Origin: Candidatus Woesearchaeota archaeon
GTDB taxonomy: Archaea; Nanobdellota; Nanobdellia; Woesearchaeales; JAHWHD01
Reading direction: 5' to 3'
NCBI GenBank assembly: GCA_019323515.1
Contig: JAHWHG010000002.1
Span: forward strand, 18,316 to 82,315
DNA length: 64,000 bases
Shown in pieces: positions 4,402 through 60,579 of this stretch. A model generated the notes under the pieces. That model was not told the DNA's origin. It was given only the letters and a program-made list of their open reading frames with translations, and searched no databases. The stretch's first letter is position 1. Each line of letters opens with the position of its first letter. A program made the translations under genes and the position numbers.

Positions 4402-4470
4402 TTATTTTTTTTCATTGTTATTTTTATTTTTTAATAACTTTTATAATATTCTCTTTATTTCTTGATTTAT

Positions 4471-34295: not shown

Positions 34296-34642
34296 GCTTT
34301 TTAGATAAGTTGAAGTTTTGGAAAAAGGAGCCAGAGCTTGAGTTCGAAAAGGATTTTCCTGACCTGGAGGTTCCTAAAGAGGACCAGCCTATTGAGAGGA
34401 CATTTCCGAGTGCGATGCCTGAGGACAGGATGAGGACTCAAGGATTTTCGTTACAGCAGCCCGGGATGCAGCCTGGTATGGGAGAGCGTGATCTTAGCGG
34501 GGAGAGGATGATAAGCAAGGATTTTGAGATCATATCTGCGAAGCTTGACGCTATAAAGGCACAGCTTGATGCGATGAATGTCAGACTGCACAGCCTTGAA
34601 AGGATTGCTGCTGGTGAGAAGCGTGGCCCAGGATTCTACTGA
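34292..34642 (+). CDS. Hypothetical protein with C-terminal coiled coil
   Basis: ORF track 116 aa. ATGA overlap with the upstream gene. Confidence 0.45.
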   Translation: MSFLDKLKFWKKEPELEFEKDFPDLEVPKEDQPIERTFPSAMPEDRMRTQGFSLQQPGMQPGMGERDLSGERMISKDFEIISAKLDAIKAQLDAMNVRLHSLERIAAGEKRGPGFY

Positions 34643-35027
34643 TTTCTTTATCATCGCGCTGTTTGTGGTTGCGATTGACCAGGTATCAAAGTACTTTGTA
34701 AGGAATCTGAGGTATGATTTTGTAAAGAACACTGGAGCTATATTTGGGGTGCTGAAAGGTGCAACCGGATTCCTGATAGTTGTTTCACTTGTTGTTATCT
34801 TCCTTTTGTTCTGGTACAGGAAGGATATACTGAAGCAGAAGAAGATTCATCAGGTGTGTTATGCTTTAGTGCTTGGCGGTGTTATTGGAAATCTTATTGA
34901 CAGGGTTGTATACGGTTATGTGATCGATTTCATTGATTTTAAGGTATGGCCAGTATTTAATTTAGCTGATGTTGCATTGAGTGTTGGTGTGTTGTTGTTG
35001 GTGTATTTGATAATTAGAGAGAAGTGA
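34623..35027 (+). CDS. lspA: Lipoprotein signal peptidase (signal peptidase II)
   Basis: VKNTGAIFGVL, LVLGGVIGNLIDRVVYGYVIDFIDF and VFNLADVALSVG are the conserved LspA blocks, including both catalytic Asp regions. The track start 34578 overlaps the upstream gene heavily, so the in-frame GTG 34623 is preferred. Confidence 0.75.
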   Translation: MAQDSTDFFIIALFVVAIDQVSKYFVRNLRYDFVKNTGAIFGVLKGATGFLIVVSLVVIFLLFWYRKDILKQKKIHQVCYALVLGGVIGNLIDRVVYGYVIDFIDFKVWPVFNLADVALSVGVLLLVYLIIREK

Positions 35028-38940: not shown

Positions 38941-39798
38941 ATGCAAGGAAAGATTGAGGTAGGAGGACAGGCTGTTATTGAGGGAGTGATGATGAGGAGT
39001 CCGAATTATGTAGCGGTCTCTGCCCGGACTGATCGGGGTATAGTAACAAAGAGAGAGCGGCTGAGAAAGAAGAAAGCTTTCTTCAAATGGCCTTTTGTCA
39101 GGGGTGTTGTTGGGTTGTTTGAGATGCTTGTCATAGGGATGAAAGCATTGACATGGTCAGCAAACCAGGCTGGTGATGAGGATGAGCAGATGTCGACAAT
39201 GGATATTGTGCTTGTGTTTGTGTTTTCATTTCTCTTTGTTGTGGTCGGGTTTATTGTGGCTCCGTTCTATGTGACTAAGTTAATAGTAGGAAGTTCAGGT
39301 GTTTTGTTCAATCTTGTAGATGGTCTTATCAGGGTTGGGGTGTTTGTTGTGTATCTTCTTGTGATATCAATGATGAAGGATGTGAAGACTGTGTTCCAGT
39401 ATCACGGGGCTGAGCATAAAGCTGTCAATTGCTATGAGGCAGGTCTGAAGCTGAATGTGAAGAACTGCCAGAAGTATAAAACACTGCACCCGAGGTGCGG
39501 TACATCGTTTATTGTGATTGTCCTGGTGGTGAGCATACTTGTTTTTTCCTTGATAACCGGGTCTGTGGTTGTCAGGTTAATGTCAAGGATTTTGTTGTTG
39601 CCAGTTATTGCTGGTTTAAGTTTTGAGTTCCTTAAGTTTGCTGGAAAGCATCATAAGAATATAATTGTAAGGTTGCTGAACTATCCTGGGATGCTTATAC
39701 AGAAAGTGACCACTAAAGAGCCTGATGATAAGCAGGTTGAGGTTGCGATAAAGTCGCTTAAAGAAGTGTTAAGGCTTGAAAAAGGAAAAAGTATATAA
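38941..39798 (+). CDS. DUF1385-family membrane protein
   Basis: ORF track 285 aa. GGQAVIEGVMMRSP...YHGAEHKAVNCYEAG...LHPRCGTSF are the characteristic DUF1385 blocks. Confidence 0.8.
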   Translation: MQGKIEVGGQAVIEGVMMRSPNYVAVSARTDRGIVTKRERLRKKKAFFKWPFVRGVVGLFEMLVIGMKALTWSANQAGDEDEQMSTMDIVLVFVFSFLFVVVGFIVAPFYVTKLIVGSSGVLFNLVDGLIRVGVFVVYLLVISMMKDVKTVFQYHGAEHKAVNCYEAGLKLNVKNCQKYKTLHPRCGTSFIVIVLVVSILVFSLITGSVVVRLMSRILLLPVIAGLSFEFLKFAGKHHKNIIVRLLNYPGMLIQKVTTKEPDDKQVEVAIKSLKEVLRLEKGKSI

Positions 39799-39838
39799 AT
39801 TTAGGATTATTGAATTGGTGTAAAAGAGGTGAAATCAT

Positions 39839-40030
39839 ATGATGAAAGATCTTGCAAAGAATAATATTGGAAAACTTACAGGAGGGCTGTTAATTCTTTA
39901 TGTTGGAATTGTTTATCTGCTGTGGAACATTGGGACAATTCCGTATCATCTGAATGTCTTATGGCCAGGGTTAGTGATAATCCTAGGACTTGGAATACTT
40001 CTGAAGTACTTCCTTGGGCCAAAGAAATAA
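39839..40030 (+). CDS. Small two-TM membrane protein
   Basis: ORF track 63 aa. A GAGGTGA Shine-Dalgarno lies 6-7 nt upstream. Confidence 0.5.
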   Translation: MMKDLAKNNIGKLTGGLLILYVGIVYLLWNIGTIPYHLNVLWPGLVIILGLGILLKYFLGPKK

Positions 40031-40048
40031 ACATTGATATTATTTTTT

Positions 40049-40189
40049 TTATATCTCTTCTAATATATGTCGCTTTACTTTCATAGTCCCTTCTGTGCCG
40101 CAGTAAGGACATCTATGAAATGGTTCTTTCCTGTCTTTCTTTAACGGCTCAATCACAAAGTTGCATTTAGTGCATCTGAACTTTACCAT
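40049..40189 (-). CDS. 46-aa zinc-ribbon protein
   Basis: My translation is MVKFRCTKCNFVIEPLKKDRKEPFHRCPYCGTEGTMKVKRHILEEI, with two CxxC pairs. It is below the ORF-track cutoff. Confidence 0.45.
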   Translation of the reverse strand: MVKFRCTKCNFVIEPLKKDRKEPFHRCPYCGTEGTMKVKRHILEEI

Positions 40190-40234
40190 TTTAAAAAATT
40201 AAAGATGAATTGGTATATAAATGTTGTTAATAAA

Positions 40235-40882
40235 TCAGATGTCAGTTGGTTCCTGGATGTTGAGGATCCTGTAGTTCAGTCCTTGTTCTTTGAAGTTCTT
40301 TTCTACAGTGTCTAGATTGATTGGGTATCTTGGGTTGTCATAGTGCATTGGGATGACAAGGGATGCTTGTGTCTCTTTAGCGAACAGAGCTGCTTCAAAT
40401 GGTCCCATGACAAGGCCATGGTTGCAGACTGGGACAAAGAGGATGTCGCAGGTGTAGTCGTTAGGGAAGCAGATAGTGTCGCCGGTATGGTACAAGGTTT
40501 TTTCTGCCTTGATCATGAACCCAATAGGTTCATTGATCTCTTTTCCGCCTTTAAGTATTGGAAGAAAGCCGTGGACTGCTTTTGTGACCTCTATCCTTAT
40601 GTTGTCGATATTGATTATGTCACCCTGCTTTACAATGTTAGGAGAGAGTTCAGGGTATGCTTTTGCGACCTCATTAGTTGTATAAATTGGTGCTTCGAGT
40701 TTCATAAGAGCGTCAATATTGCAGTGGTCGCTGTGTTTGTGAGTGATAAGGATTATGTTAGCTTGTTTCCAGTCTTCCAGGAAAAGTTCGTTGAAATTGA
40801 TAGTGCCTGGATCTATAAGGATTGTCTTGTTTTGTGTTTCAATAAGGAAACATGATTGAGGGTATCTTGTGATTTTCATCAT
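40235..40882 (-). CDS. MBL-fold metallo-hydrolase
   Basis: ORF track 215 aa with ILITHKHSDHC (the HxHxDH motif) and later His/Asp ligand positions. Confidence 0.8.
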   Translation of the reverse strand: MMKITRYPQSCFLIETQNKTILIDPGTINFNELFLEDWKQANIILITHKHSDHCNIDALMKLEAPIYTTNEVAKAYPELSPNIVKQGDIINIDNIRIEVTKAVHGFLPILKGGKEINEPIGFMIKAEKTLYHTGDTICFPNDYTCDILFVPVCNHGLVMGPFEAALFAKETQASLVIPMHYDNPRYPINLDTVEKNFKEQGLNYRILNIQEPTDI

Positions 40883-45819: not shown

Positions 45820-45984
45820 ATGATTAATGCTAAAGCGATTTCATTGGTAAGGAACACTGTTGTGCTTCCAGGGTATGAGTTAACGTGTCCGCACTGTAAC
45901 CATAAAATACATTTTGAGAAAGAACTAATGAGCTGTTGTTCTAATGTTTATTGTGATTTCTGTCAGCAGAAGGTAGAGTTGTAG
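45820..45984 (+). CDS. Small Cys-rich (zinc-ribbon-like) protein
   Basis: The track ORF runs 45766..45984 from a TTG. I prefer ATG 45820 (MINAKAISL...CPHCNHKIHF...CCSNVYCDFCQQK), which has gtttataaat (45774..45783) and GGGGTG upstream. The 3' end overlaps the convergent gene by 44 nt. Confidence 0.4.
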   Translation: MINAKAISLVRNTVVLPGYELTCPHCNHKIHFEKELMSCCSNVYCDFCQQKVEL

Positions 45985-47065
45985 CTCTTGCTGAAAGTTT
46001 TTCCCTGAAACCTGGTGCTTTCATTGCTGGAAGATAATCTTCTGTGTCCATTGTGTTGAACAGGTAGACATTAGGGGTTAATCTGTAGATGCCTTTTTTC
46101 TGCGGAAGGTTTAGTTCTGGTTTTGGGCAGTTGCTGTCAAAAAGTACAGTCACCATATCTGTCTTGTGGTTAAGCTCTGTGTAAATCACATCTGCATGTC
46201 CAGATCCTACTGTTGCAAGAACCTGTCCATGCTTTAAAGCTGAACAGATCTGGTATAACATTGTCCAGTTCCTGATTGCCAGGCTTGAAACACTGTCAGT
46301 CTCTGACCTGCCAGCTTTACAGTAATCTTCTGTATCCAGACCTCCAAAGTCTATTGGAAGGATCTTGTGGCTGTTGTCACGAAGGAAGTTTAGTTTTGGT
46401 CCTATGATCGGCATGAAAGAAGGATGCGGGGTTGGTAAATCTCTTGAGTTAACTATCCCTGGTCTTGAGAAATAATCCTCAAGTTTGTGTTCATGGTTAG
46501 CATAAAAGCCTTCAATACCTGCAATGAAACTGGTGTTCATCTTTTTCAGAAGACTTAGACGTTCGTCTAATCCTAGAAGGTGATGTTCTCCAAACACTAT
46601 TAAAGGTTTTTTTCTTAATACTCTTAGAAGTTCTTCCTCAGTAATCTTTTCTGAATGTTGGAACTGTTTAACCCATGCATGAAACTTTTTTGAAGCTTCA
46701 CCCCATTCATCAGGACCGCCTAGTCTTTTTTCCAGGTCTTGACGGTCTGAGTATTGCAGCATGTTGTAAAGTGCTTCCTGGTAGCCTTCTGTCTTTAGGA
46801 CATATCTGTATTGTTTTTTTGAGGGTACTATCCCAATACTGAAGTTTCTCTGTTGTCTTGCCTTGAAGTAGTTGTCAGTCACCCAGTAACCCTCAGGTGT
46901 TCTTGCAATCTCGTTGGGTTCAACAGTCTGGTTATTGTTGATGTCCCTGTAAAGAACGTATGCGGTTGTTGGGAACGCGTTTTGGAGTTCTGCGTATGGA
47001 ACAGATTTAGCAAAAGCAGAAGTAAGTGTAAAGTACAGTGCTGGTACGATTAAGGACTTTCTCAT
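45941..47065 (-). CDS. Secreted ChaN/Tiki-superfamily-like protein
   Basis: ORF track 374 aa with a signal peptide (LIVPALYFTLTSAFA). LIVFGEHHLLG...IAGIEGF...RNWTMLYQI...VLATVGSGHADV fits the GxxH...E...R..M...GxxH layout of the ChaN/TraB/Tiki/erythromycin-esterase superfamily. This is a tentative call from memory. Confidence 0.5.
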   Translation of the reverse strand: MRKSLIVPALYFTLTSAFAKSVPYAELQNAFPTTAYVLYRDINNNQTVEPNEIARTPEGYWVTDNYFKARQQRNFSIGIVPSKKQYRYVLKTEGYQEALYNMLQYSDRQDLEKRLGGPDEWGEASKKFHAWVKQFQHSEKITEEELLRVLRKKPLIVFGEHHLLGLDERLSLLKKMNTSFIAGIEGFYANHEHKLEDYFSRPGIVNSRDLPTPHPSFMPIIGPKLNFLRDNSHKILPIDFGGLDTEDYCKAGRSETDSVSSLAIRNWTMLYQICSALKHGQVLATVGSGHADVIYTELNHKTDMVTVLFDSNCPKPELNLPQKKGIYRLTPNVYLFNTMDTEDYLPAMKAPGFREKLSARATTLPSADRNHNKH

Positions 47066-47105
47066 TGAAGATTATGTTTGAAAGTAGCTTATAAAGATTA
47101 TTGGC

Positions 47106-48110
47106 CTAGAACAGTGCTCTTCCTAACCTGTAGTCCGGGTTAGGGTTGAGGTAATTAACAAGCCTTTTAATTAATTCAAGAGAGTTAACGTATCTGTCCT
47201 CTAAATCTGCGTAACCTTCGCTGTTGCCAAGCTGTACCTTGTCATAGTCAGCATAATGATGAATCTCTTTAAATATATTTTTGCAGTACTCAAAGAAATA
47301 TCTTGGGTTCTCTCTGATGTGTTTTTTTAGTCTGTTATTTGGTTCAAAATAGTATGTGAATCCTCCATGATTCTTTATGTATTGATTCATATCTGCAGTC
47401 TCTTTGCTTAGTGTGTTTGAATGATGTCCAATGTCCCAGGCAAGCCTCTGTACGAGTTTCTCCATTGCATACAATCCGAATGAGTAAAGGTCTGAATATT
47501 TATGAATCATTTCATCTTTATACTCTGGTGGCGCGTATGCACGGTTCCAGAACAGGCCATTGTCTTCCTCTAAAGGACAGGCAATACCAAAATCAATAAG
47601 GTGGTAATCAAGGATGTTTGCTGGTCTGATGTCTTTATGCTGAAGGCCTTGGTAGGTTAATGATAGAACAGCTTCCTCAAGTTTTTGCATGTTATGGAAC
47701 TCTTTTGCTAATCCTATAAGGCCGTAGTTGTTATAATAATAAGGTTTGATGTAAGGCATTAAGATACCTGGTATGTCGCCAAAAGTTACCATGCCTAAGC
47801 AGTTTACTATGTTTGGGTGTGACATGTCGAATGAATTGAAGATCCTAATCTCGTTAAGGTGCCTTTCAAAATGAGTCATCTTAAGTACATGGTCTATCAT
47901 TCCAGTGCTTTTAATGAATTCAAGGTCTATCAGCTCGTTAGGGATATTTACCTTGCAGACAGCCTGGTAATCTGACCATCTTTGTTCTTCTTTTACATTA
48001 ATGTAGTACAATTGGCTAAGACAGTCAAGGTCTTTGCCCCTAAACCCTTGAAAAATCTTTATCTTTCCGCAGTCACTCACTTGTCCTGGTTCAAGAAGAT
48101 ATGCCATCAT
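47106..48110 (-). CDS. Hanks-type (eukaryotic-like) protein kinase paralog K1
   Basis: ORF track 334 aa with AVCKVNIPN (Lys), NEIRIF (Glu), HKDIRPANI, DFG, APPEY and SDLYSFG. The N-terminus MAYLLEPGQVSDCG is shared with K2. The C-terminus is diverged (YLNPNPDYRLGRALF). Confidence 0.8.
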   Translation of the reverse strand: MMAYLLEPGQVSDCGKIKIFQGFRGKDLDCLSQLYYINVKEEQRWSDYQAVCKVNIPNELIDLEFIKSTGMIDHVLKMTHFERHLNEIRIFNSFDMSHPNIVNCLGMVTFGDIPGILMPYIKPYYYNNYGLIGLAKEFHNMQKLEEAVLSLTYQGLQHKDIRPANILDYHLIDFGIACPLEEDNGLFWNRAYAPPEYKDEMIHKYSDLYSFGLYAMEKLVQRLAWDIGHHSNTLSKETADMNQYIKNHGGFTYYFEPNNRLKKHIRENPRYFFEYCKNIFKEIHHYADYDKVQLGNSEGYADLEDRYVNSLELIKRLVNYLNPNPDYRLGRALF

Positions 48111-49087
48111 ACATACTCCATTAGTTCTTCAGTTAAAAGATGTTTAGGAGGGATTCTTTTGTCAGGGTCAGGGTTTAGGTAGTAGCGGCAGATTTGAATT
48201 AGTCCTGAACAATCAACTGCCGAGATATAGGAATCATATGACATTGAGTTGTCTTCAACATGAAAATCATTATCTTTAAAATAATTGATATTTTTCTGGA
48301 GAATCCTAATGAATTCTTCTGAATCCTGCCTGACATTCTTTGAAAATTCGTAAGGTTCCTCACTAAAGTTAAGAACCTTTCTACAAAAATCAGGTTTAAG
48401 TTCTTTAGAATCAAAATACCCATAAGAAATCCCTCTTAGATAAGTCGTTTGAAGAGACATCCCAACTGAATAAGATATTAATAACCCAACTGAGTAAAGG
48501 TCAGAATTTTTATGAGGCTTGCAGTTGAAATATTCAGGGGCACAAAATGAACGATTAAAAAATATTCCATTGTCGCTGTCGACTCTACAGGCAATCCCAA
48601 AATCAATCAGTTTGCCACCAATAACATTGTCAGGCTTAATGTCCTTGTGTGAGATACCATTATGCCTTAGATAATATACAGCACCTTCAATGCCTCTGAA
48701 CGTTTCAGGATAAAGAAACAAGATTCCTCCATACATGTCACGATTACAAAGATTAAGAACTGCCACTGGAAGATCTTTAAATGTTATATCACCTAATAAA
48801 GAAATTATGTTTGGGTGAGAAATTTGTTTAAGGATCGAAACTTCATTATTATGCCTTTTGTTATGTGATTGAAGATTTAACATAACCTGTAAGCCTGTAC
48901 TTATTAATCCTTCTCTATCAATTCTGTTATTTGGAATATTTAATTTTCCTATATTTGCAGTATCTGAGCCGAACTTCTGCAATACAAATAGCTGGCTTAG
49001 ACAATCCAGGTTTTCTCCCCTTATCCCATGAATAACCTTATACCTAGCGCAGTCGCTCACTTGTCCTGGTTCTAGAAGATATGCCAT
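48107..49087 (-). CDS. Hanks-type protein kinase paralog K2
   Basis: ORF track 326 aa with IGKLNIPN, NEVSILKQISHPNI, HKDIKPDNV, DFG, APEY, SDLYSVG and C-terminal YYLNPDPDKRIPPKHLLTEELMEYV. The stop overlaps the K1 start (ATGA). Confidence 0.8.
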   Translation of the reverse strand: MAYLLEPGQVSDCARYKVIHGIRGENLDCLSQLFVLQKFGSDTANIGKLNIPNNRIDREGLISTGLQVMLNLQSHNKRHNNEVSILKQISHPNIISLLGDITFKDLPVAVLNLCNRDMYGGILFLYPETFRGIEGAVYYLRHNGISHKDIKPDNVIGGKLIDFGIACRVDSDNGIFFNRSFCAPEYFNCKPHKNSDLYSVGLLISYSVGMSLQTTYLRGISYGYFDSKELKPDFCRKVLNFSEEPYEFSKNVRQDSEEFIRILQKNINYFKDNDFHVEDNSMSYDSYISAVDCSGLIQICRYYLNPDPDKRIPPKHLLTEELMEYV

Positions 49088-50181
49088 TATAGATACCCCA
49101 TTAGTTCCTCAGTTAAAAGGTCTTTAGGAGGGATTCTTTTTTCAGGGTCACGGTTTAGGTAGTAGCAGAATCTTTCAAGGAATTTTTCATCGAGTGACAG
49201 GTTAAATACTCCCTGAAGGTTACTTGCCTTAAGATTCATAGCATCGTGCAATGTCTTATACTCTGCTGAACCGCTTAGCTCCCAAGCACCTGAGAAATGT
49301 TGCTCAAAAACTGAGAGGCAACCTACAGGACCTCCTGCATCTTGGAAGAACTTTGTAAAGTTTTTGGGGTATTCTCTTATGCTCTTTACCACGTTTATAT
49401 CGTTAAATTGAGGTATGTACTCACTGACAAATTCCTTAATAATTGTGTATAATTTAATCTTCATATCTTGCCTTAGTCTATTAAGATTGTAGTCTATTGA
49501 ATCTTTCTTGTATCCTTCTTTAAAGTCCTCATCTGGATCTTCGTCAAGACAAAAAACAATTTGCCTGAACATTGCCTCAAAGTATACTAAAGCTGCACTG
49601 TATAAATCAGAATTAATATGTGCTCTTTTTTCATAAAACTCAGGAGGGCAATATGCCCTATTAAAGAAAAATCCGTTGTCTGCGTCAATGTGTGAAGCAA
49701 GGCCAAAGTCAATCAGTTTGCCAGCAAGTATGTTTCTTGGGGATATGTCTTTGTGTAATATTCTTTTTGATCTTAAGTAGTAAACAGCGGATTCCAGGCC
49801 TGATAATTCTGAGACACATCCTTTTGAATGCCTATCAAGAACTTTACCTATTTTCATCAGCATTCCGCGCTTTCCGTTGAACTCACAGATGTCATAAATC
49901 TCCTGAATATTTGGATGTCTAAGGCTTTTAAGTATTGAAACCTCATTATCAAACCTTTCCTCGTGCGTCTGCATCGATAATATCTGTGACATCCCAGTAC
50001 TTCTTACATGTTCTTTGTCAATCAAATCGTTTGGGATGTTTACTTTAAGTATTAGAATATGTTTATCATCCTTTGTAACATATAACTGGCTTAAGGAGTC
50101 ACAATTTTCTCCAATTAAACCAAGAGCAGCCATGTACTTTCCGCAGTCGCTTTTCTGGCCTGGATTAAGTAAGAATACCAT
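49087..50181 (-). CDS. Hanks-type protein kinase paralog K3
   Basis: The track ORF starts at TTG 50193. I prefer ATG 50181 (MVFLLNPGQKSDCGKY aligns with the K1/K2 N-termini; atttataaag 50201..50210 lies upstream). It has LILKVNIPN, NEVSILKSLRHPNI, HKDISPRNI, DFG, PPEF, SDLYSAA and YYLNRDPEKRIPPKDLLTEELMGYL. The stop overlaps the K2 start (TAATG). Confidence 0.8.
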   Translation of the reverse strand: MVFLLNPGQKSDCGKYMAALGLIGENCDSLSQLYVTKDDKHILILKVNIPNDLIDKEHVRSTGMSQILSMQTHEERFDNEVSILKSLRHPNIQEIYDICEFNGKRGMLMKIGKVLDRHSKGCVSELSGLESAVYYLRSKRILHKDISPRNILAGKLIDFGLASHIDADNGFFFNRAYCPPEFYEKRAHINSDLYSAALVYFEAMFRQIVFCLDEDPDEDFKEGYKKDSIDYNLNRLRQDMKIKLYTIIKEFVSEYIPQFNDINVVKSIREYPKNFTKFFQDAGGPVGCLSVFEQHFSGAWELSGSAEYKTLHDAMNLKASNLQGVFNLSLDEKFLERFCYYLNRDPEKRIPPKDLLTEELMGYL

Positions 50182-50200
50182 ATAGAAGTCCAATCAGGGT

Positions 50201-50210
50201 GATTTATAAA
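50201..50210 (-). promoter_or_regulatory. TATA box upstream of kinase K3
   Basis: atttataaag lies 20 nt upstream of ATG 50181. Confidence 0.4.
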
Positions 50211-50225
50211 GGTTTAGTAGTAGAA

Positions 50226-51158
50226 TTATTTCTTTGACTCTTTTCTTTTCTTTACAAATTCCCTTATAGCAAGGATATCTCCAGCGTGTCTTGCAGCCTG
50301 TATGCATTTGTCATAATCGTTAGGGTACTTTTCATAGATAAGTTTAGCCAGTCTTTTTGCTTCTCCACTTTTCTTTGCTTCAAATGCAATGGTTGATGCT
50401 TGCATAAGCTGGCCAAGCTGTTCTCTTATAGATATAGCTGTCTGGTAATCTTTCATTGTAACTGCGATATCTGCAAGATCCTCAAGAAATGCTTTTGAGG
50501 CTTTATTCTTTCTATCTAAAGCGTCCAAGTAAATAAGGTATGCATCATTTTCCCTTCCAACTGATTTTGCTATCTCAATCTTTCTCTTGACTGTCATGGT
50601 ACGTTCTATGGCTTTGTCTGATAACTCAATTGCCTCTTCAAACATGTTAGCTTCAAATGCTGTCTCTGCTGCAACTGCTATGTAATCAGTCTTGATGAAA
50701 AGTTCAATAGCTTCCTGGAACTTGCCTTGTCTCCTGAGAGACCATGCCTGGTGATACTTTTGATTCCTTAGCTCTTCCTTGCTAGGACCTTTATAGTTCT
50801 CCTGGCTCCAGCTGTTAATTGCGTAAAGTACTTTAGATGTCATAAGGTTTGCAGGTATCTTTGAGCACCTGTCAAGGCTTTGCACGAAAGTAGCAAGGTC
50901 ACCGTCGTAATCGAACTCTCTTTCCCATTTCTTGAAGCTTGCCCCAAGTATAAAGGCAGGCAGCATGTTTTCGATATTGTCCCAGCTAGGATGTCGCCAT
51001 TCATTTACCCTTGTTCCGCTCCATTGGACATCTTCTAAACCTATAATCCCAATATAAGAAATCTCTTCATCATCTATCTTTATTATCTCTTTATTCTTTA
51101 CAAGAAGTTTTCCTTCAAGTGAGTATTCGCTGCCTGATTCAGTCTTGTAGATCTTCAT
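50226..51158 (-). CDS. Helical-repeat (TPR-like) protein with distinct N-terminal domain
   Basis: ORF track 310 aa. The C-terminal two thirds consist of repeated ~34-aa helical pairs (FQEAIELFIKTDYIAVAAETAFEANMFEEAIELSDKAIE...). It lies immediately upstream of the kinase array on the same strand. Confidence 0.55.
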   Translation of the reverse strand: MKIYKTESGSEYSLEGKLLVKNKEIIKIDDEEISYIGIIGLEDVQWSGTRVNEWRHPSWDNIENMLPAFILGASFKKWEREFDYDGDLATFVQSLDRCSKIPANLMTSKVLYAINSWSQENYKGPSKEELRNQKYHQAWSLRRQGKFQEAIELFIKTDYIAVAAETAFEANMFEEAIELSDKAIERTMTVKRKIEIAKSVGRENDAYLIYLDALDRKNKASKAFLEDLADIAVTMKDYQTAISIREQLGQLMQASTIAFEAKKSGEAKRLAKLIYEKYPNDYDKCIQAARHAGDILAIREFVKKRKESKK

Positions 51159-51239
51159 ATTTTTCTTGTAGGGGTTTAGTTTTTATAAAGGTTTAGGATG
51201 TGGGTAAAGTATATAAATAGTTAATTCTTAAGTTCCTAT

Positions 51240-54326: not shown

Positions 54327-54674
54327 ATGAAGTTTCCGCTCACCAAGAAGGATATAATTGCAATGAACCAGGTGTTTGACCAGGGGATTTTGATCAATGA
54401 GGAGAGTCTTGACTTTGCTATAAGCTATGCTAGAATGACAGAGAACTGGGTAAAGGCTCTTGCTTTTTTGGTCAGAGCGATAAACGTTGACCATGTCTTT
54501 GAGGAAGGAAATAAGCGGACAGCTGCATTACTGATAGAGACCTATGTTGAGTTTGAAGGCCATAAGGTGTACAAGGATAAACTTGCTTTATTGATTGCTC
54601 GAATGGCAGCTAAAAGGGTAACAAGCATAAGAAGATTGGAGGAGATGATCAAAGATGTCATCAAGAATAGTTAA
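54327..54674 (+). CDS. doc: Doc (death-on-curing) family toxin
   Basis: ORF track 115 aa. HVFEEGNKRTAALL matches the Doc variant of the Fic motif (HxFx[D/N/E][A/G]NKR). Confidence 0.75.
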   Translation: MKFPLTKKDIIAMNQVFDQGILINEESLDFAISYARMTENWVKALAFLVRAINVDHVFEEGNKRTAALLIETYVEFEGHKVYKDKLALLIARMAAKRVTSIRRLEEMIKDVIKNS

Positions 54675-54879
54675 ACTTGCACAGCGGATAGCTGTAAGGG
54701 ATAAGAAGCTGTTTGATAGTCTTATTGAGTTTGAGAAGACTGGTAAAGTACGAACAAAGACAAGGTTAAACTTTACAATAGATAAGGATCTGGCTCTTCG
54801 TTTTAGAAAATTCTGTAGAGATAAAGGTTATAATATGAGTTCTAGGATTGAAAAGTGCATAGAGGAGATTATTGGTTAA
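54655..54879 (+). CDS. Ribbon-helix-helix (CopG-like) protein, putative Doc antitoxin
   Basis: ORF track 74 aa. LNFTIDKDLALRFRKFCRDKGYNMSSRIEKCIEEII has the beta-strand plus two helices RHH pattern. It overlaps the doc 3' end by 20 nt. Confidence 0.6.
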   Translation: MSSRIVKLAQRIAVRDKKLFDSLIEFEKTGKVRTKTRLNFTIDKDLALRFRKFCRDKGYNMSSRIEKCIEEIIG

Positions 54880-55165
54880 GTTTTTCGTACTCTTCATGCA
54901 TTCTCTTGTAATGTGCTTGTGCTTCCTGCATCATCTTTGTCCTTCTTTGATATTCCTCTGATCTCATCTTTTCCTGTTGTTCTGCGATGACTAATCTAGG
55001 GTCAGCGCAGCCATGGAATCTTTTAACTGGTCTGGACATTGCTGTGTAATATCTTACCAAAGGTCTAGACCTGCACGCAGGTGCATGGTAAGTTATAGGT
55101 TCTCTATTGACGCATCCAGATAAAATCAATGTTAAAGCACAAAGCGTTTTTTTTAGTTTGTTCAT
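54869..55165 (-). CDS. Small lipoprotein
   Basis: ORF track 98 aa. MNKLKKTLCALTLILSGCVN has a classical lipobox, L-S-G-C. Confidence 0.6.
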   Translation of the reverse strand: MNKLKKTLCALTLILSGCVNREPITYHAPACRSRPLVRYYTAMSRPVKRFHGCADPRLVIAEQQEKMRSEEYQRRTKMMQEAQAHYKRMHEEYEKLNQ

Positions 55166-56602: not shown

Positions 56603-57664
56603 CTAGCCCATGTACTTCAACAGTTCTTCTGTCAATAGCTCTTTAGGAGGGATTCTTTTGTCAGGGTCAGGGTTTAGGTAGTAGCGGCATCTTTCTAAAA
56701 GTTTTCTGGACCATACTCCCTCAGGTGACCATTCAAATGCTCCATAATATCCCATTATCTCTCCCTCAGATACAACTTCTTCCAGCTTTTTATAAAAATG
56801 TGAAAATAAGTCTACATATTCATTATAATGATCTTTTATCTTTCCTGGGTAGTTTTTGTCTTTGGACCAATCAATAAAATCTTCATAGTAGGTAATCGGT
56901 CTCCAATCTATATCTTTGGTCTCTGGAAACAGACCTTTATCCACAAAGTCCTGAAGCTGCTCTAAAAAACCTTTTGCCTTGACACGAATATATGTGCATT
57001 TTGGGGAACTTTTATACCAGTCCCTTATGATCAGCTGCTCTAACAAGGCATTGATTATAACCAGGCCATACGAGTATATGTCAGAATTCTTATGTAGCCT
57101 GCAATCATCAAACTCAGGTGGTCTGAACATCCTGTTAAAATATAAACCGTTGTCATCTTCAAATCTGCAAGCAATACCAAAATCAATTAATTTTGATTTT
57201 GTCATGTTCATTGGTCTTATGTCCTTGTGCGCTATCCCTTTATGTCTTAGATAGTAAATTGCAGGCTCGATCTTGTCTAAGTGCTGGATAGGATAGTTTA
57301 TCCAAAAATTTTTATGGTAATCAGTTTCCAGAGCAAACACTATTGCAGGAAGTCCATCAAAATAAGTTGTGTCGTGTAAAGATATTATGTTAGGATGGTG
57401 AAGCTGTTTAAGGATGGCGACTTCGTTTTCAAACCTCTCTATATGTGTCAAATGATTTAGCATATGGGACATGCCTGTACTCTGGATATGTTCCTTATCA
57501 ATAAGGTCATTAGGGATGTTTAACTTTGCAGCGAGTGACTGTGGAGAAGCCAGCCAATATACCTGGCTCAAGCAGTCCCTTATACATCCAGATAAAGGTA
57601 AAAACACTGTGTACTTGCCGTCATCTGAAACCTGGTCACGACTTAGCAATAATCCATCTCCCAT
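56603..57664 (-). CDS. Hanks-type protein kinase paralog K4
   Basis: ORF track 353 aa with AAKLNIPN, NEVAILKQLHHPNI, HKDIRPMNM, DFG, PPEF, SDIYSYG and YYLNPDPDKRIPPKELLTEELLKYMG. Confidence 0.8.
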   Translation of the reverse strand: MGDGLLLSRDQVSDDGKYTVFLPLSGCIRDCLSQVYWLASPQSLAAKLNIPNDLIDKEHIQSTGMSHMLNHLTHIERFENEVAILKQLHHPNIISLHDTTYFDGLPAIVFALETDYHKNFWINYPIQHLDKIEPAIYYLRHKGIAHKDIRPMNMTKSKLIDFGIACRFEDDNGLYFNRMFRPPEFDDCRLHKNSDIYSYGLVIINALLEQLIIRDWYKSSPKCTYIRVKAKGFLEQLQDFVDKGLFPETKDIDWRPITYYEDFIDWSKDKNYPGKIKDHYNEYVDLFSHFYKKLEEVVSEGEIMGYYGAFEWSPEGVWSRKLLERCRYYLNPDPDKRIPPKELLTEELLKYMG

Positions 57665-57753
57665 AGGGTTAGCTAGTGATAGAAGGATTTAAAGGTTATT
57701 GTGAGGGGTTAAGTGAATAAATATTTATAAATCCTTTACTGGTTCTTTGGATT

Positions 57754-58605
57754 ATGATAACATTATATGACTTTCTTAAGTCTGAGAGTCTTAGGGAGTT
57801 GGAGCAGAGGTACCTTTCTCAAGGTTATGAGTTCTCTATCGAGGAGGCTATTGAGGACTGGCAGAAGCTTAAGCAGGATAGATGTGAAAAGAAGGTCCTG
57901 TGCAGGACTGAGAATCTTAAAGTTGATGGTTGTGATTATCATGTACATGGGATATGTCATTCTAAATATATAAGTGAGAAGCACAGGGATATGTTTAAGA
58001 GTAAGGAAACTTTATGGTTCTATGAAGAGAACCTTGGAAGGCATATTGATGTGCATGGTATAGAGGTGTATGACCATGCATTGTTTGACAGGGATGATGT
58101 GTGGCAGATGTCAATGGAGGATGATTTCAGTGCACTTGAGCTGTTCTTTAAATCGTTAAGGAAGAAGAAGGCAGACAAAGCTGAGAGGTCTTTAGGTATG
58201 CCAGCTGAAGTTGCGTATTCCCTGCCTTTCTACCTTGTGATGGACTTAGCAGGAGGGAAGGTTGCTAATCTGACAGGAGATAGGTCGAGGTTAGCTGCAA
58301 GGTCTGCTTTCCAGGCTGCTTTTATGAAAAAGTTTGAGTTCAAGGATAAGTCAATAGTTGTAGGTGATGCGCATCGTGGGCCTGTTAAGTATTTCCTTAA
58401 GAACGGTGTGAAGGATGGGTATATTAATGCATTGGCTGATTATTATTATGAACTGTTCATGATGGACCAGAAGAAGTATTACATGTCTAAACCTTCAAGA
58501 GAGTTAGGTTATAGGATGATGAACCTTTATGCTGTGCTGTGGAAGAACCGATATGGGTTATTGTTTGATGCTGTGCTGTTGAATGTTGCTTTTGGGTTGT
58601 TGTGA
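57754..58605 (+). CDS. TraB/Tiki-superfamily-like protein
   Basis: ORF track 283 aa. YHVHGICHS...WFYEENL...RSRLAARSAFQAAFM...IVVGDAHRGPVKYFL fits the GxxH...E...R...GxxH layout of TraB/PrgY/Tiki proteins (tentative). It is divergent from K4. Confidence 0.45.
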   Translation: MITLYDFLKSESLRELEQRYLSQGYEFSIEEAIEDWQKLKQDRCEKKVLCRTENLKVDGCDYHVHGICHSKYISEKHRDMFKSKETLWFYEENLGRHIDVHGIEVYDHALFDRDDVWQMSMEDDFSALELFFKSLRKKKADKAERSLGMPAEVAYSLPFYLVMDLAGGKVANLTGDRSRLAARSAFQAAFMKKFEFKDKSIVVGDAHRGPVKYFLKNGVKDGYINALADYYYELFMMDQKKYYMSKPSRELGYRMMNLYAVLWKNRYGLLFDAVLLNVAFGLL

Positions 58606-58615
58606 ACGAGATTGG

Positions 58616-59032
58616 TCAGGAAAGAAGTTCCTTAATCTGGCTGATAAACTTAAGCATGCTATCAATTAAATCAGATGCTTCTTCCTTTGAGACATCTTTG
58701 CCATAATAATTTATCTGGTTTCTTAATCTCCTGAACCTGTCAAAGGTTTCTGCAAGGTTTGGCTTATCAAGTATCTCTTTAAGAAAAGCGACATAGCATT
58801 GGTGGTTATAGATCTTGTATCCTTCACTGATCGCCAAAGCTTCTAAAAGTTCCCTTAAAGATTCATATAGAAGACTTAACTTTGAAGATGCTGTAGTATC
58901 ATTGAGCTCAAGCATCGACTGTGTTTCCAGTTTCTTTGCAGAAGAATCTTTCAGAGATTTAATCAGGCTTTTATCAATAGTGATACTTTTTACCATATCA
59001 TTCATATTACAAGCTTTCCAGTCCATCACCAT
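58616..59032 (-). CDS. HEPN domain protein (toxin partner of MNT)
   Basis: ORF track 138 aa, four-helix-like. FDRFRRLRNQINYYG matches the R-x-x-R-N-x-x-x-Y HEPN (PF05168-type) signature. It overlaps the upstream MNT gene by 7 nt. Confidence 0.7.
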   Translation of the reverse strand: MVMDWKACNMNDMVKSITIDKSLIKSLKDSSAKKLETQSMLELNDTTASSKLSLLYESLRELLEALAISEGYKIYNHQCYVAFLKEILDKPNLAETFDRFRRLRNQINYYGKDVSKEEASDLIDSMLKFISQIKELLS

Positions 59033-59517
59033 GCACCTGAAAGTATGTGGCCGTTAAGAATGTTGTTCAACAACTGTTTTGGTACAGATTTCTTATCCTT
59101 GAATATGAACAGTTGTATCTCCCTTTTTTTATGCTTTAATAGTGGTTTTTTTGTAGAAGAAGTGAATACAGCAATATCAATATCTGAACCAGGCTTGACC
59201 TCAGCTTTTGAAAGTGAACCGAAAAGGATTATCAAAGGATCTATCAGCTCTTTTTCCATCTGTTTTACTAGAGGTTCCAGCTCCAGGCTCCAGTAAACTC
59301 TTGAAAGGTCCCTAAAAAGTTTGCTCTCCTTGTCTGCAGAATAAAAGATATAGTTCCTGTCAAGCTCCTTTGTTAGTAGCCCTTGATCCTTGTAATAAGT
59401 CAAAAGCTTTGAAGCAGTAGGGGCTGTTATGCCAATCAACCTGGCGTATTCCCTTACATTTATCCTTCTATAACAGTCTTCAAAAAAGGGTTTTAAATCG
59501 TTTAATATATTTAACAT
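59026..59517 (-). CDS. wHTH + minimal nucleotidyltransferase (MNT) protein
   Basis: ORF track 163 aa with an N-terminal HTH (YARLIGITAPTASKLLTYYKDQGLL) followed by GSLSKAEVKPGSDIDIAVF (GS...DxD). Confidence 0.75.
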   Translation of the reverse strand: MLNILNDLKPFFEDCYRRINVREYARLIGITAPTASKLLTYYKDQGLLTKELDRNYIFYSADKESKLFRDLSRVYWSLELEPLVKQMEKELIDPLIILFGSLSKAEVKPGSDIDIAVFTSSTKKPLLKHKKREIQLFIFKDKKSVPKQLLNNILNGHILSGAW

Positions 59518-59691: not shown

Positions 59692-60579
59692 ATGTTCATA
59701 GAAATAAGAGAAGTAGGTAAAAGCAAGAAGTATTATCTTATACATACCTATAGGTCAAAGGGTAAAGTAAAACGTCTATCTAAATATCTTGGTTCTAATC
59801 TAAGTAAAATTAAACTGCAAAAATTACGGAAAAAGGCAGAGCAGCAGATATCAGAGGAGATAAAAGAGAAGGATATTCTTGGATTTGAACTGTCAAAAGA
59901 TGAGATCGAAAAATACAAAAGATATGAAAGGGATATAGAGATCAAACATCTGCAAAACTGGCAGAAGTTTACTGAGAATTTTACCTATAATACAAACGCG
60001 ATCGAGGGCTCAACAGTTGCGTTATCTGAGGTAAGGGAACTGCTTAGAGGAGAGGACAAGCCTCATGATAATGATGAAATTGAAACATTAAATGTTGCAG
60101 AGGCGATTGAGTTCATCAAAAATTCTAAACTGAAGGTTACAGTTGCGTTTATCAAGAAGTTACATAAGATCTGCTTTAACAGGACAAAACGGTTTGCAGG
60201 CAAGTTAAGGGATGTTAATGTGGTGATCCGTGATTCAAAAGGGATGGTTGTTCATGAAGGTGCTCCAGTTGACCAGCTAAAACTACTGCTTGAAGAACTT
60301 TGCACTTGGTATGAAAAACATAAAAGGAAATATCCTGCATTGCTGCTTGCTGCAGTGATGCATAACCAGTTTGAAAAGATCCATCCATTTCAGGATGGTA
60401 ATGGAAGGGTTGGCAGGTTACTGCTTAATTATGTACTAATAAGGCATGATTATCCGCCAATCAATATCAGGCTTAAGGATAGGGCAAGATATTATCGTTG
60501 CTTGCATGAGTATGATAATAAGAACGATATCAAATCAACCCTGAAATTTCTGATAAACCAGTACAAAAAACAATATTAG
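59692..60579 (+). CDS. fic: Fic family protein
   Basis: ORF track 295 aa. HPFQDGNGRVGRLL is the canonical Fic motif HxFx(D/E)GNGRxxR. Confidence 0.9.
   Translation: MFIEIREVGKSKKYYLIHTYRSKGKVKRLSKYLGSNLSKIKLQKLRKKAEQQISEEIKEKDILGFELSKDEIEKYKRYERDIEIKHLQNWQKFTENFTYNTNAIEGSTVALSEVRELLRGEDKPHDNDEIETLNVAEAIEFIKNSKLKVTVAFIKKLHKICFNRTKRFAGKLRDVNVVIRDSKGMVVHEGAPVDQLKLLLEELCTWYEKHKRKYPALLLAAVMHNQFEKIHPFQDGNGRVGRLLLNYVLIRHDYPPINIRLKDRARYYRCLHEYDNKNDIKSTLKFLINQYKKQY

What the first reader, a model, noticed from the sequence alone, without database searches (positions are those of the whole stretch)
45941..51158. Five-gene minus-strand block: helical-repeat protein, three translationally coupled Hanks-type kinase paralogs, secreted ChaN/Tiki-like protein
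Seen in sequence: five ORFs run head-to-tail on the minus strand. The order is 50226..51158 (TPR-like), K3 (49087..50181), K2 (48107..49087), K1 (47106..48110), then 45941..47065 (signal peptide; GEHH...E...R..M...GSGH layout). K3/K2 share a TAATG junction and K2/K1 an ATGA junction, so they are likely co-translated. All three kinases keep the catalytic set: Lys in xKxNIPN, Glu in NE(V/I)xI(L/F), HKDIxPxN, DFG, (A/P)PE(Y/F) and SDxYSxG. Divergence is concentrated in the segment between SDxYSxG and the C-terminal YYLNPDPDKRIPPK helix (about 95-135 aa, barely alignable by eye), and the Gly-rich loop is non-canonical (EPGQVSDCGKYK). Established knowledge: archaeal housekeeping kinases are RIO/Bud32 types, and tandem arrays of Hanks-type kinases are not a standard archaeal feature. 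Inference: this could be a multi-kinase signalling, defence or host-interaction module, with the variable insert as a specificity element. I know of no described system with this gene set.
Basis: partly seen in the sequence, partly recalled or inferred. Interest (0 to 1): 0.8.

Follow-up and report, generated by a model that had tools for sequence, protein, structure and literature searches.

The report
Tandem protein-kinase paralogs in a Woesearchaeote

Summary
The five minus-strand ORFs exist as described, in a Candidatus Woesearchaeota MAG. K1, K2, K3 and a fourth copy K4 (56603-57664) are true Hanks-type kinases. They pass the Pfam Pkinase cutoff, keep the catalytic Lys, Glu, HxD-N, DFG, PE, Asp and Arg, and the K2 model matches DAPK/CaMK/IRAK4 folds. 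The Gly-rich loop is really G(L/I)RGENLDCLSQL(F/Y), degenerate and 3 aa longer, not EPGQVSDCGKYK. K1-K4 form a lineage-specific clade within a rare subfamily found in archaeal (where labelled, Woesearchaeota) metagenome contigs. Other members also sit next to further kinase genes. K3-K2-K1 overlap (TAATG, ATGA) and share one promoter. The TPR-like gene, K3, the Tiki-like gene and K4 each have their own TATA box about 30 nt upstream of the ATG, so the block is three transcription units. The Tiki-like protein has no homolog among 5.8 billion proteins. Its ChaN match is sub-threshold (E 0.07-0.2) and its structure model failed. The TPR-like protein has only sub-threshold TPR hits. Neither flanking gene recurs beside related kinases. 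No known defence or phage system matches. Verdict: a real, mildly novel kinase paralog operon. The five-gene module is unsupported.

The parts
49087..50181 (-). K3, first gene of the kinase operon (364 aa from ATG 50181). Hanks-type Ser/Thr kinase paralog with the longest C-lobe insert (143 aa).
   Evidence: Pfam Pkinase 69 bits against a cutoff of 31.7. NCBI's product of 364 aa matches the ATG start. Insert length.
48107..49087 (-). K2, second gene (326 aa). Its start overlaps the K3 stop (TAATG).
   Evidence: Pfam Pkinase 66.3 bits. Junction. AF2 model has pLDDT 78.7 and pTM 0.79. Foldseek matches DAPK1, CaMKII and IRAK4 at probability 1.0.
47106..48110 (-). K1, third gene (334 aa). Its start overlaps the K2 stop (ATGA). 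It is the most divergent copy, with a truncated and altered C-terminal tail.
   Evidence: Pfam Pkinase 49.7 bits. Junction. Basal position in the NJ tree. Tail in the alignment.
50205..50210 (-). TATA box (context AAACCTTTATAAAT) 29 nt upstream of the K3 ATG. Predicted promoter of a leaderless or short-leader K3-K2-K1 transcript.
   Evidence: K2 and K1 have no such element.
48013..48198 (.). Junction repeat, copy 1 (K2 tail plus K1 start). It is 83% identical over 186 nt to copy 2, which lies 980 nt away.
   Evidence: the repeat finder family D1, alignment and codon-identity test.
48993..49178 (.). Junction repeat, copy 2 (K3 tail plus K2 start).
56603..57664 (-). K4, dispersed fourth paralog (353 aa) with its own TATA box at 57688-57693. 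Sister to K2 in the tree.
   Evidence: Pfam Pkinase 57 bits. K2+K4 clade 159/200. TATA box.
50226..51158 (-). Upstream neighbour: 310-aa protein with an unassigned N-terminal 130 aa and an alpha-helical-repeat C-terminal half. It has its own TATA box at 51184-51189. Not shown to belong to the kinase unit.
   Evidence: Sub-threshold TPR hits. NCBI name 'soluble NSF attachment family protein'. No relatives found. TATA box.
45941..47065 (-). Downstream neighbour: 374-aa orphan protein with a hydrophobic N-terminus and GEHH/GSGH motifs. It has its own TATA box at 47090-47095. Not shown to belong to the kinase unit.
   Evidence: Only a self-hit among 5.8 billion proteins. PF04187 at E 0.22/0.066. 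AF2 pLDDT 34. Motifs and hydropathy. TATA box.

Best explanation
K3-K2-K1 is one operon of three lineage-specific paralogs of a small, soluble, stand-alone Hanks-type Ser/Thr protein kinase. K4 is a dispersed fourth copy derived from the same array. The array arose by tandem (unequal-crossover) duplication in this Woesearchaeota lineage. Transcription is predicted to start from one TATA box about 29 nt upstream of the K3 ATG, giving a leaderless or short-leader mRNA. K2 and K1 are then translated by termination-reinitiation at the overlapping TAATG and ATGA junctions, so the three proteins are made together. All residues needed for phosphotransfer are kept, so the proteins are most likely active kinases. 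The HKD catalytic loop (non-RD) and a short activation segment without a conserved phospho-acceptor suggest they do not depend on activation-loop phosphorylation. The paralogs differ mainly in a 101-143-aa, predicted-helical insert in the C-lobe, between helix F and the last conserved helix, where kinases dock substrates. The inferred division of labour is therefore different substrates or partners for each copy, possibly including cross-phosphorylation of each other. The flanking TPR/SNAP-like and secreted Tiki-like genes are separately promoted orphan neighbours, not demonstrable components. Shown: gene structure, paralogy, kinase-family membership, fold, promoter motif pattern and lack of conservation of the neighbours. 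Inferred: catalytic activity, co-translation and the insert as a specificity element.
For: Kinase identity: Pfam Pkinase 49.7-69 bits, above the 31.7 cutoff, for all four copies. A profile search of the PDB hits 1,799 kinase sequences, with DAPK3 best at 4e-16. The K2 AF2 model has pLDDT 85-97 over residues 1-210, and Foldseek gives DAPK1, CaMKII and IRAK4 at probability 1.0. Catalytic residues are invariant. Lineage-specific expansion: K1-K4 are monophyletic in 192/200 bootstraps, with P0009 as sister in 199/200, and K4 nested as sister of K2. In 5.8 billion proteins K2's only close relatives are its own paralogs. Motif scans of GTDB genomes, JGI metagenomes and IMG/VR find none. Tandem-duplication signature: a 186-nt, 83%-identical repeat spans both junctions exactly one gene length apart. 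Operon: overlapping stop and start codons. A TATA box is present before K3 and absent before K2 and K1, while the motif marks 33/67 ORF starts against a 3.5% background. Variable insert: 17-26% identity against 40-51% in the core, with low model confidence over residues 211-295. Kinase clustering recurs in the wider subfamily: a tandem pair of subfamily members in L006-L008, and other kinase genes adjacent in L001-L004 and L015. Neighbours not part of it.
Against: No experimental or transcript data exist. Promoters are inferred from a motif only, and read-through from the TPR-like gene into K3, or from K1 into the Tiki-like gene, is not excluded because there is no oligo-T run in either spacer. 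The Gly-rich loop is degenerate and lengthened, which could impair ATP binding. The insert is modelled with low confidence, so its position on the substrate-docking face is inferred from topology only. No partner phosphatase, FHA protein or obvious substrate is encoded in the 64-kb window. Absence of conservation of the neighbours is weak evidence, because no closely related genome is available.
Confidence: 0.6

Rival explanations
1. One reading: all five genes form one functional module. The helical-repeat protein scaffolds the three kinases, and the secreted Tiki/ChaN-like hydrolase is the output or sensor for signalling or host interaction.
For: All five genes are on the same strand, with short spacers of 40-44 nt and no oligo-T terminator between them. 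ChaN (PF04187) is the top-ranked Pfam family for the 374-aa protein and covers the GSGH region. K4 is also adjacent to an orphan with two GxxH motifs at similar spacing.
Against: There are separate TATA boxes before the TPR-like gene, K3 and the Tiki-like gene. The Tiki-like protein has no homolog, and the TPR-like protein has none found. Neither occurs near any related kinase. The ChaN and TPR matches are below the curated cutoffs. The K4 neighbour is unrelated to the Tiki-like protein.
Confidence: 0.12
2. The kinases are anti-virus defence kinases, like the single-gene PD-T4-6 or Stk2 kinases or MADS mad6. The variable inserts would then act as diversified sensors of viral proteins.
For: The best PADLOC matches are mad6 (up to 63.7 bits) and PD-T4-6 models of similar size. 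K4 lies in a stretch with Fic/DOC genes (54327-54674, 59692-60579), a nucleotidyltransferase (59026-59517) and many orphans. There is a rapidly diverging insert and a lineage-specific expansion.
Against: The PADLOC and PHROGs matches cover only the generic kinase core and score no better than Pfam Pkinase. No partner genes of MADS or BREX are present. The block lies among housekeeping genes (flavodoxin, radical SAM, MFS transporter) and has the same GC content as its surroundings. No relatives are on IMG/VR viral contigs.
Confidence: 0.1
3. Some or all copies are pseudokinases or scaffolds that bind partners without catalysis, because the ATP-clamping Gly-rich loop has degenerated.
For: The loop reads G(L/I)RGENLDCLSQL(F/Y), whereas many of the more distant subfamily members read xDGTFGPLY. 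K1 has also lost the conserved C-terminal tail.
Against: All other catalytic residues (Lys, Glu, HxD, Asn, DFG, PE, Asp, Arg) are invariant in four paralogs that are only 32-45% identical. That pattern is expected under selection for catalysis. Pseudokinases usually lose at least one of Lys, the catalytic Asp or DFG (established knowledge of the kinase superfamily).
Confidence: 0.1
4. The kinases are effectors delivered by the DPANN cell into its host cell to rewire host proteins by phosphorylation.
For: DPANN archaea are mostly host-dependent (literature listed). The family is restricted to such lineages, expands in a lineage-specific way, and diversifies on a putative substrate-binding surface.
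Against: There is no signal peptide or transmembrane segment in any copy: the maximum Kyte-Doolittle 19-residue windows are 1.25-1.39 and lie inside the kinase core. No secretion or transfer genes are adjacent. In relatives the kinases sit among housekeeping genes and next to phosphoesterase and PhoU-like regulator genes, which suggests internal signalling.
Confidence: 0.08

Closest known systems
Archaeal Hanks-type (eukaryotic-like) Ser/Thr kinases, e.g. Sulfolobus ArnC/ArnD and the S. islandicus ePKs (PMC5007285, PMC5300886, PMC5682000)
   Same: Same superfamily, with the same catalytic subdomains. They are cytoplasmic kinases of archaea with several paralogs per genome. Cross-phosphorylation between paralogs is documented in the title and abstract of PMC5682000.
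   Different: K1-K4 are bare kinase domains. They have a KxNIPN motif around the beta3 Lys, an insertion of about 15 aa between that Lys and the helix-C Glu, a lengthened degenerate Gly-rich loop, a 101-143-aa hypervariable C-lobe insert and a conserved RIPPKxLLTEELMxY tail. Three are translationally coupled in one operon. No close sequence relationship to characterised archaeal kinases was seen. The nearest solved structures are eukaryotic CAMK-group and bacterial PknB-type kinases at about 20% identity.
Uncharacterised 'LKVNLP' kinase subfamily from metagenomes (P0009, P0039 = MBI4439518.1 of a Woesearchaeota MAG, P0041, P0046, P0086 and others)
   Same: They share the N-terminal LxPGxxxxxRYxV strand, the (L/V)K(V/L)N(L/I)P Lys motif, the HPNI motif, the short DFG...NGxFxNRxYxPPE activation segment, HxNSD(L)(W/Y)S, a variable C-lobe segment and a small size of 320-440 aa. 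They recur next to other kinase genes.
   Different: They are only 20-34% identical to K2. Many of the more distant members keep a recognisable DGxFGPLY Gly-rich loop. Their recurrent neighbours (an AbrB/MazE-PhoU-like protein and a Metallophos phosphoesterase) are absent from this window.
Single-gene defence kinases PD-T4-6 and Stk2, and MADS mad6 (PADLOC models)
   Same: They are small Ser/Thr kinases of prokaryotes. These are the best PADLOC hits (mad6 up to 63.7 bits, PD-T4-6 up to 53.4 bits).
   Different: The similarity is limited to the generic kinase core. The scores do not exceed those of Pfam Pkinase, and no MADS partner genes are present.
ChaN / Tiki / TraB superfamily (Pfam PF04187, PF01963), for the 374-aa neighbour only
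   Same: There are two GxxH motifs (GEHH at 159, GSGH at 287) about 130 residues apart, and an R..M motif before the second one. PF04187 is the top-ranked Pfam family over residues 257-292.
   Different: The score of 11.9-13.6 bits is far below the 27.7-bit cutoff. There is no PDB sequence match, and the structure model is unusable. Membership remains a lead, not a result.

Membership tests
Hanks-type / eukaryotic-like protein kinase (Pfam PF00069) | Score above Pfam's curated gathering threshold for the Pkinase domain | tested here: met
   K1 49.7, K2 66.3, K3 69.0 and K4 57.0 bits against a cutoff of 31.7.
Hanks-type / eukaryotic-like protein kinase (Pfam PF00069) | Catalytic residues: beta3 Lys, helix-C Glu, HxD catalytic Asp with downstream Asn, DFG Asp, APE Glu, subdomain IX Asp and subdomain XI Arg | tested here: met
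   K48, E82, H147/D149, N154, D162-F-G, E185, D196 and R311 are invariant in K1-K4 and in register with the canonical kinase P0135.
Hanks-type / eukaryotic-like protein kinase (Pfam PF00069) | Canonical Gly-rich loop GxGxxG between beta1 and beta2 | tested here: not met
   The homologous loop is G(L/I)RGENLDCLSQL(F/Y). It has two Gly, lacks the third, and is 3 residues longer. Many active kinases deviate here, so this lowers confidence in activity but does not exclude membership.
Hanks-type / eukaryotic-like protein kinase (Pfam PF00069) | Bilobal protein-kinase fold | tested here: met
   The AF2 model of K2 has pTM 0.79 and core pLDDT 85-97. Foldseek against the PDB gives DAPK1, CaMKII and IRAK4 at probability 1.0 and E about 1e-9, with no APH or choline kinase among the 50 hits listed.
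Hanks-type / eukaryotic-like protein kinase (Pfam PF00069) | ATP-dependent phosphorylation of Ser/Thr/Tyr | not testable with these tools
   Needs a biochemical assay.
Polycistronic, translationally coupled operon (K3-K2-K1) | Overlapping stop and start codons and no internal promoter | tested here: met
   TAATG and ATGA overlaps. TTTAWA lies 29 nt upstream of K3 only and is absent upstream of K2 and K1.
   The TPR-like, K3 and Tiki-like genes have their own TATA boxes. No relative of the TPR-like or Tiki-like protein occurs in any locus holding a related kinase, and none was found elsewhere.
ChaN/Tiki/TraB superfamily (PF04187, PF01963) | Profile match above the curated cutoff | tested here: not met
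   PF04187 scores 11.9 bits (full length) and 13.6 bits (domain only) against a cutoff of 27.7. PF01963 is not hit.
ChaN/Tiki/TraB superfamily (PF04187, PF01963) | Two GxxH motifs plus conserved Glu and Arg in the right order, and the superfamily fold | tested here: inconclusive
   The motifs GEHH159 and GSGH287 are present. The fold could not be tested because the single-sequence AF2 model has pLDDT 34.
Tetratricopeptide repeat proteins | Three or more tandem 34-residue repeats scoring above the Pfam cutoffs | tested here: not met
   Only one repeat unit (residues 135-156) is hit, at 21-24 bits against cutoffs of 27-30. NCBI calls the protein 'soluble NSF attachment family protein', which fits a generic helical-hairpin repeat.
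Known anti-phage defence systems with kinases (PD-T4-6, MADS, BREX PglW, Stk2) | Full-length match to the system's kinase model and presence of its partner genes | tested here: not met
   Only kinase-core stretches match, and the neighbours give no PADLOC hit. The NCBIfam equivalog scores are far below their cutoffs, e.g. MAD6 at 33.7 against 460.

The most novel reading that the evidence does not exclude
The 'KxN(I/L)P' kinases are a DPANN-specific family that repeatedly expands into arrays whose C-lobe insert diversifies quickly. If so, the array would work as a set of diversified recognition kinases (host-interaction or anti-viral sensors), functionally analogous to tandem-kinase immune receptors. 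The near-identical junction DNA, and the assembly break at the same base in five independent samples, would then reflect ongoing recombination and copy-number variation in the population.
Probability: 0.12. Interest if true: 0.7.

Novelty: new variant of a known kind. Interest (0 to 1): 0.35.

Why it matters
Signal transduction in DPANN archaea is essentially unstudied. These cells have tiny genomes and mostly depend on hosts, so keeping four copies of a stand-alone kinase is a notable investment. The work defines a previously undescribed, rare subfamily of eukaryote-type kinases with a distinctive motif signature and a hypervariable C-lobe insert. It also gives a concrete tricistronic operon to test. 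It removes an over-interpretation: the neighbouring 'TPR' and 'Tiki-like' genes should not be annotated as parts of a kinase system. If the inserts prove to be specificity modules, the array would be a compact natural example of kinase neofunctionalisation by tandem duplication.

Tried and rejected
(1) AlphaFold2 on the Tiki-like protein without an alignment gave pLDDT 34, which is unusable, so no fold search was run on it. (2) Sequence search of the PDB with the Tiki-like and TPR-like proteins gave nothing meaningful. (3) Hypothesis that the 310-aa 'TPR-like' protein is a divergent copy of the ~305-aa AbrB/MazE-PhoU-like protein that neighbours related kinases: rejected, hhalign probability 0.06. 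(4) Hypothesis that the orphan next to K4 (57754-58605, GICH/GDAH motifs) is a second Tiki-like protein: no similarity by BLASTP or hhalign and no Pfam hit. (5) Hypothesis that the Tiki-like protein is a divergent Metallophos phosphatase like the neighbour of P0009: no similarity. (6) Neighbourhood survey through GTDB genomes. The family alignments A3 and A6 were too divergent for the tool. The K1-K4+P0009 motifs found nothing. The A7 motifs retrieved only generic bacterial Hanks kinases at 23-32% identity, which was uninformative. (7) Metagenome and viral-contig scans for close relatives of K1-K4 and of the TPR-like protein found none. (8) PADLOC and PHROGs gave only generic kinase-core hits. 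(9) A search for a partner phosphatase or FHA protein among ORFs across the whole window found none. (10) A literature search for DPANN or Woesearchaeota kinase arrays found nothing specific. (11) An exact-product look-up of K2 found nothing on record. (12) The sigma-70 promoter and intrinsic-terminator scan gave no more than chance and is not applicable to archaea.

Full report
**1. What is in the sequence**

ORF listing confirms five head-to-tail minus-strand ORFs at exactly the stated coordinates:
- 45941-47065: 374 aa, the 'Tiki-like' protein
- 47106-48110: K1, 334 aa
- 48107-49087: K2, 326 aa
- 49087-50181/50193: K3
- 50226-51158: 310 aa, the 'TPR-like' protein

The K3 stop and K2 start overlap as TAATG. 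The K2 stop and K1 start overlap as ATGA. A tblastn of the kinases against the window finds a fourth paralog, K4, at 56603-57664 on the minus strand. GC content of the block (0.365-0.40) is the same as its surroundings.

The window comes from an 82-kb contig of a Candidatus Woesearchaeota MAG (locus tags KY330_00465 onward). The rest of the window is archaeal housekeeping: family-B DNA polymerase, aIF2-alpha, GINS51, Orc1/Cdc6, PAC2, SerRS and an S-layer-like protein.

**2. The kinases are real Hanks-type kinases, with one correction**

All four pass Pfam's Pkinase gathering score (49.7-69 bits against 31.7). A profile of K1-K4 matches 1,799 kinase sequences of the PDB. The best are DAPK3, CDPK, Snf1 and bacterial PknB-type kinases.

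An AlphaFold2 model of K2, built with an 18-sequence family alignment, has pTM 0.79 and pLDDT 85-97 over residues 1-210. Foldseek places it with DAPK1, CaMKII and IRAK4 at probability 1.0. None of the 50 listed hits is an aminoglycoside or choline kinase.

I aligned K1-K4 with more distant relatives and with a canonical bacterial kinase (P0135).

The Gly-rich loop assignment was wrong. EPGQVSDCGKYK lies before and within strand beta1. The loop in register with GxGxxG is G(L/I)RGENLDCLSQL(F/Y), which is degenerate and three residues longer.

Further peculiarities:
- About 15 extra residues between the beta3 Lys and the helix-C Glu (spacing 34 against about 19 in P0135).
- A non-RD catalytic loop (HKD).
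- A short activation segment of 24 residues from DFG to PE, with no conserved Ser/Thr.
- A conserved tail, RIPPKxLLTEELMxY, in K2, K3 and K4.
- No copy has a signal peptide or membrane segment.

**3. The divergence pattern**

Pairwise identity is 40-51% in the core, 17-26% in the segment after SDxYSxG, and up to 77% in the tail. The variable segment is 101-143 aa long, against roughly 60 in canonical kinases (established knowledge of PKA numbering). The model predicts helices there, but at pLDDT 44-65. Whether it is a folded specificity domain is therefore not shown.

**4. Origin of the array**

A 186-nt direct repeat with 83% identity spans both gene junctions (48013-48198 and 48993-49178). 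The two copies lie exactly one gene length (980 nt) apart. That is the footprint of unit-length tandem duplication.

At codons encoding identical amino acids, K2 and K3 use the same codon in 18 of 19 cases in the tail, against 35 of 72 in the core. The junction is therefore homogenised or constrained at the DNA level, by gene conversion or by selection on the reinitiation signal.

A bootstrapped NJ tree on 267 alignable columns gives:
- K1-K4 monophyletic in 192/200 replicates
- P0009 as sister in 199/200
- K4 nested as sister of K2 in 159/200
- K1 basal

The expansion is thus specific to this lineage, and K4 derives from the array.

**5. How rare is the family**

Among 5.8 billion clustered proteins, K2's only close relatives are K1, K3 and K4. 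An exhaustive HMMER search of 1.84 billion representatives finds one moderately close protein: P0009, at 164 bits over its full length. Beyond that is a loose group of small kinases (P0041, P0029, P0039, P0046, P0050, P0051, P0016, P0020, P0026, P0071, P0109, P0143, P0086) sharing the unusual motifs.

One of them, P0039, is annotated from another Woesearchaeota MAG. Several lie on contigs with archaeal-type genes such as diphthamide synthase, PTH2 and SRP54.

Scans for the family-specific motifs in 185,579 GTDB species genomes, in JGI metagenome contigs and in IMG/VR found nothing. A looser scan returned only ordinary bacterial kinases.

**6. Is the five-gene block a unit?**

Three lines of evidence say no.

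*Promoters.* This genome has a clear promoter signature. TTTAWA lies 22-40 nt upstream of the ATG at 33 of 67 non-overlapping ORFs, against 3.5% for random positions. That fits archaeal TATA boxes and leaderless or short-leader mRNAs (established knowledge of archaeal promoters). Such a box, in the context AAACCTTTATAAA, precedes these genes:
- the TPR-like gene (51184-51189)
- K3 (50205-50210)
- the Tiki-like gene (47090-47095)
- K4 (57688-57693)

It does not precede K2 or K1. The predicted units are TPR-like | K3-K2-K1 | Tiki-like. Read-through is not excluded, because the spacers lack oligo-T runs.

*The flanking proteins are orphans.*
- The Tiki-like protein matches only itself in 5.8 billion proteins.
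- Its best Pfam hit is indeed ChaN/Tiki (PF04187), but at 11.9-13.6 bits against a 27.7-bit cutoff.
- Its structure model failed (pLDDT 34).
- The TPR-like protein has one sub-threshold TPR unit. It has no relative in the metagenome scan or the PDB. NCBI names it 'soluble NSF attachment family protein'.

*Neighbourhoods of related kinases.* I fetched the neighbourhoods of seven related kinases (loci L001-L015). None encodes a relative of either flanking protein, or of the orphans around K4.

**7. What does recur around related kinases**

- Other kinase genes: a tandem pair of subfamily members in L006-L008, and longer kinases of other types next to the subfamily member in L001-L004 and L015.
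- An AbrB/MazE-PhoU-like protein of about 305 aa (L001-4, L012, L015).
- A Metallophos phosphoesterase (L005, L013/14, L009-11).

Neither the PhoU-like protein nor the phosphoesterase is present in this window. No PP2C, FHA or Metallophos protein was found among the ORFs scanned across all 64 kb. The recurrent kinase-kinase adjacency and the phosphoesterase and regulator neighbours point to internal signalling. They do not point to a secreted or defence function.

**8. Known systems**

- PADLOC gives only kinase-core hits: mad6 at up to 63.7 bits, plus PD-T4-6 and MkoA. The flanking genes give none.
- NCBIfam equivalogs are far below their cutoffs.
- PHROGs gives one generic kinase family.
- Hanks-type kinases are well documented in archaea (PMC5007285), so their presence alone is not surprising.
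- I found no paper on kinase arrays in DPANN archaea.

**9. Conclusion**

The core of the finding is a tricistronic, translationally coupled operon of three lineage-specific paralogs, plus one dispersed copy. They belong to a rare, undescribed subfamily of stand-alone Hanks-type kinases from archaeal, Woesearchaeota-like contigs, and the subfamily has distinctive structural departures.

The most likely function is cytoplasmic phospho-signalling by co-produced kinases that have diverged in a C-lobe surface (confidence about 0.6). The five-gene 'module', the Tiki/ChaN assignment and the TPR assignment are not supported by the tests that could be run. Defence, effector and pseudokinase readings remain possible at low probability.

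Noticed in passing
window 48172 (K2 tail); loci L096-L100: Contigs assembled independently from five SRA runs (DRR851344, DRR851372, DRR851376, DRR851379, SRR11241199) are 100% identical to the window. All begin at the same base, 48172, just after the CCTGACCCTGAC (Pro-Asp-Pro-Asp) hexamer duplication inside the junction repeat. The longest exact repeat within the K1-K3 DNA is only 18 nt (about 24 nt is shared with the K4 tail), so a population polymorphism upstream (hexamer number or array copy number) is a possible cause. Complete K2, K3, K4 and TPR-like products are not recorded from those assemblies.
   Followed up: partly
window 57754-58605 (+), divergent from K4: A 283-aa orphan is transcribed divergently from K4, with back-to-back TATA boxes in the 89-nt spacer. 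It has two GxxH motifs (GICH at 66, GDAH at 204) at a spacing like that of the Tiki-like protein. It shows no detectable similarity to that protein and no Pfam, PADLOC or PHROGs hit.
   Followed up: yes
loci L001-L004, L012, L015 (PhoU-like); L005, L013/L014, L009-L011 (Metallophos): In the wider kinase subfamily two neighbours recur: an AbrB/MazE-PhoU-like protein of about 305 aa, and a Metallophos phosphoesterase. This suggests a conserved kinase-regulator-phosphoesterase association in other archaeal (DPANN-like) lineages. It is absent from this window.
   Followed up: partly
window 38941-40882 and locus L012 11141-12609: In L012 the related kinase P0041 is followed directly by Lactamase_B_3 and DUF1385 genes. 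The same two genes lie 5 kb from the kinase block in the window, which may be a remnant of ancestral synteny.
   Followed up: partly
whole window: Half of the ORFs (33 of 67) have TTTAWA 22-40 nt upstream of the ATG, often as AAACCTTTATAAA, against a 3.5% background. This implies mostly leaderless or very short-leader transcripts in this Woesearchaeote.
   Followed up: yes
window 4462-5001 (+) and 5374-6372 (-): QueH (epoxyqueuosine reductase) and QueA (Queuosine_synth, 371 bits) are present. These are genes of the bacterial queuosine tRNA-modification pathway, which is unexpected in an archaeon and a candidate bacterial acquisition.
   Followed up: no
window 34578-35027 (+) and 54869-55165 (-): A signal peptidase II (Peptidase_A8, 111 bits) is encoded. 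A 98-aa ORF begins MNKLKKTLCALTLILSGC, a bacterial-type lipobox. Together these suggest bacterial-style lipoprotein processing in this archaeon.
   Followed up: no
window 54327-54674, 58616-59517, 59692-60579: The stretch around K4 holds two Fic/DOC-domain genes and a nucleotidyltransferase gene that overlaps a small partner ORF (toxin-antitoxin-like), among many orphans. It looks like an accessory-gene region.
   Followed up: partly
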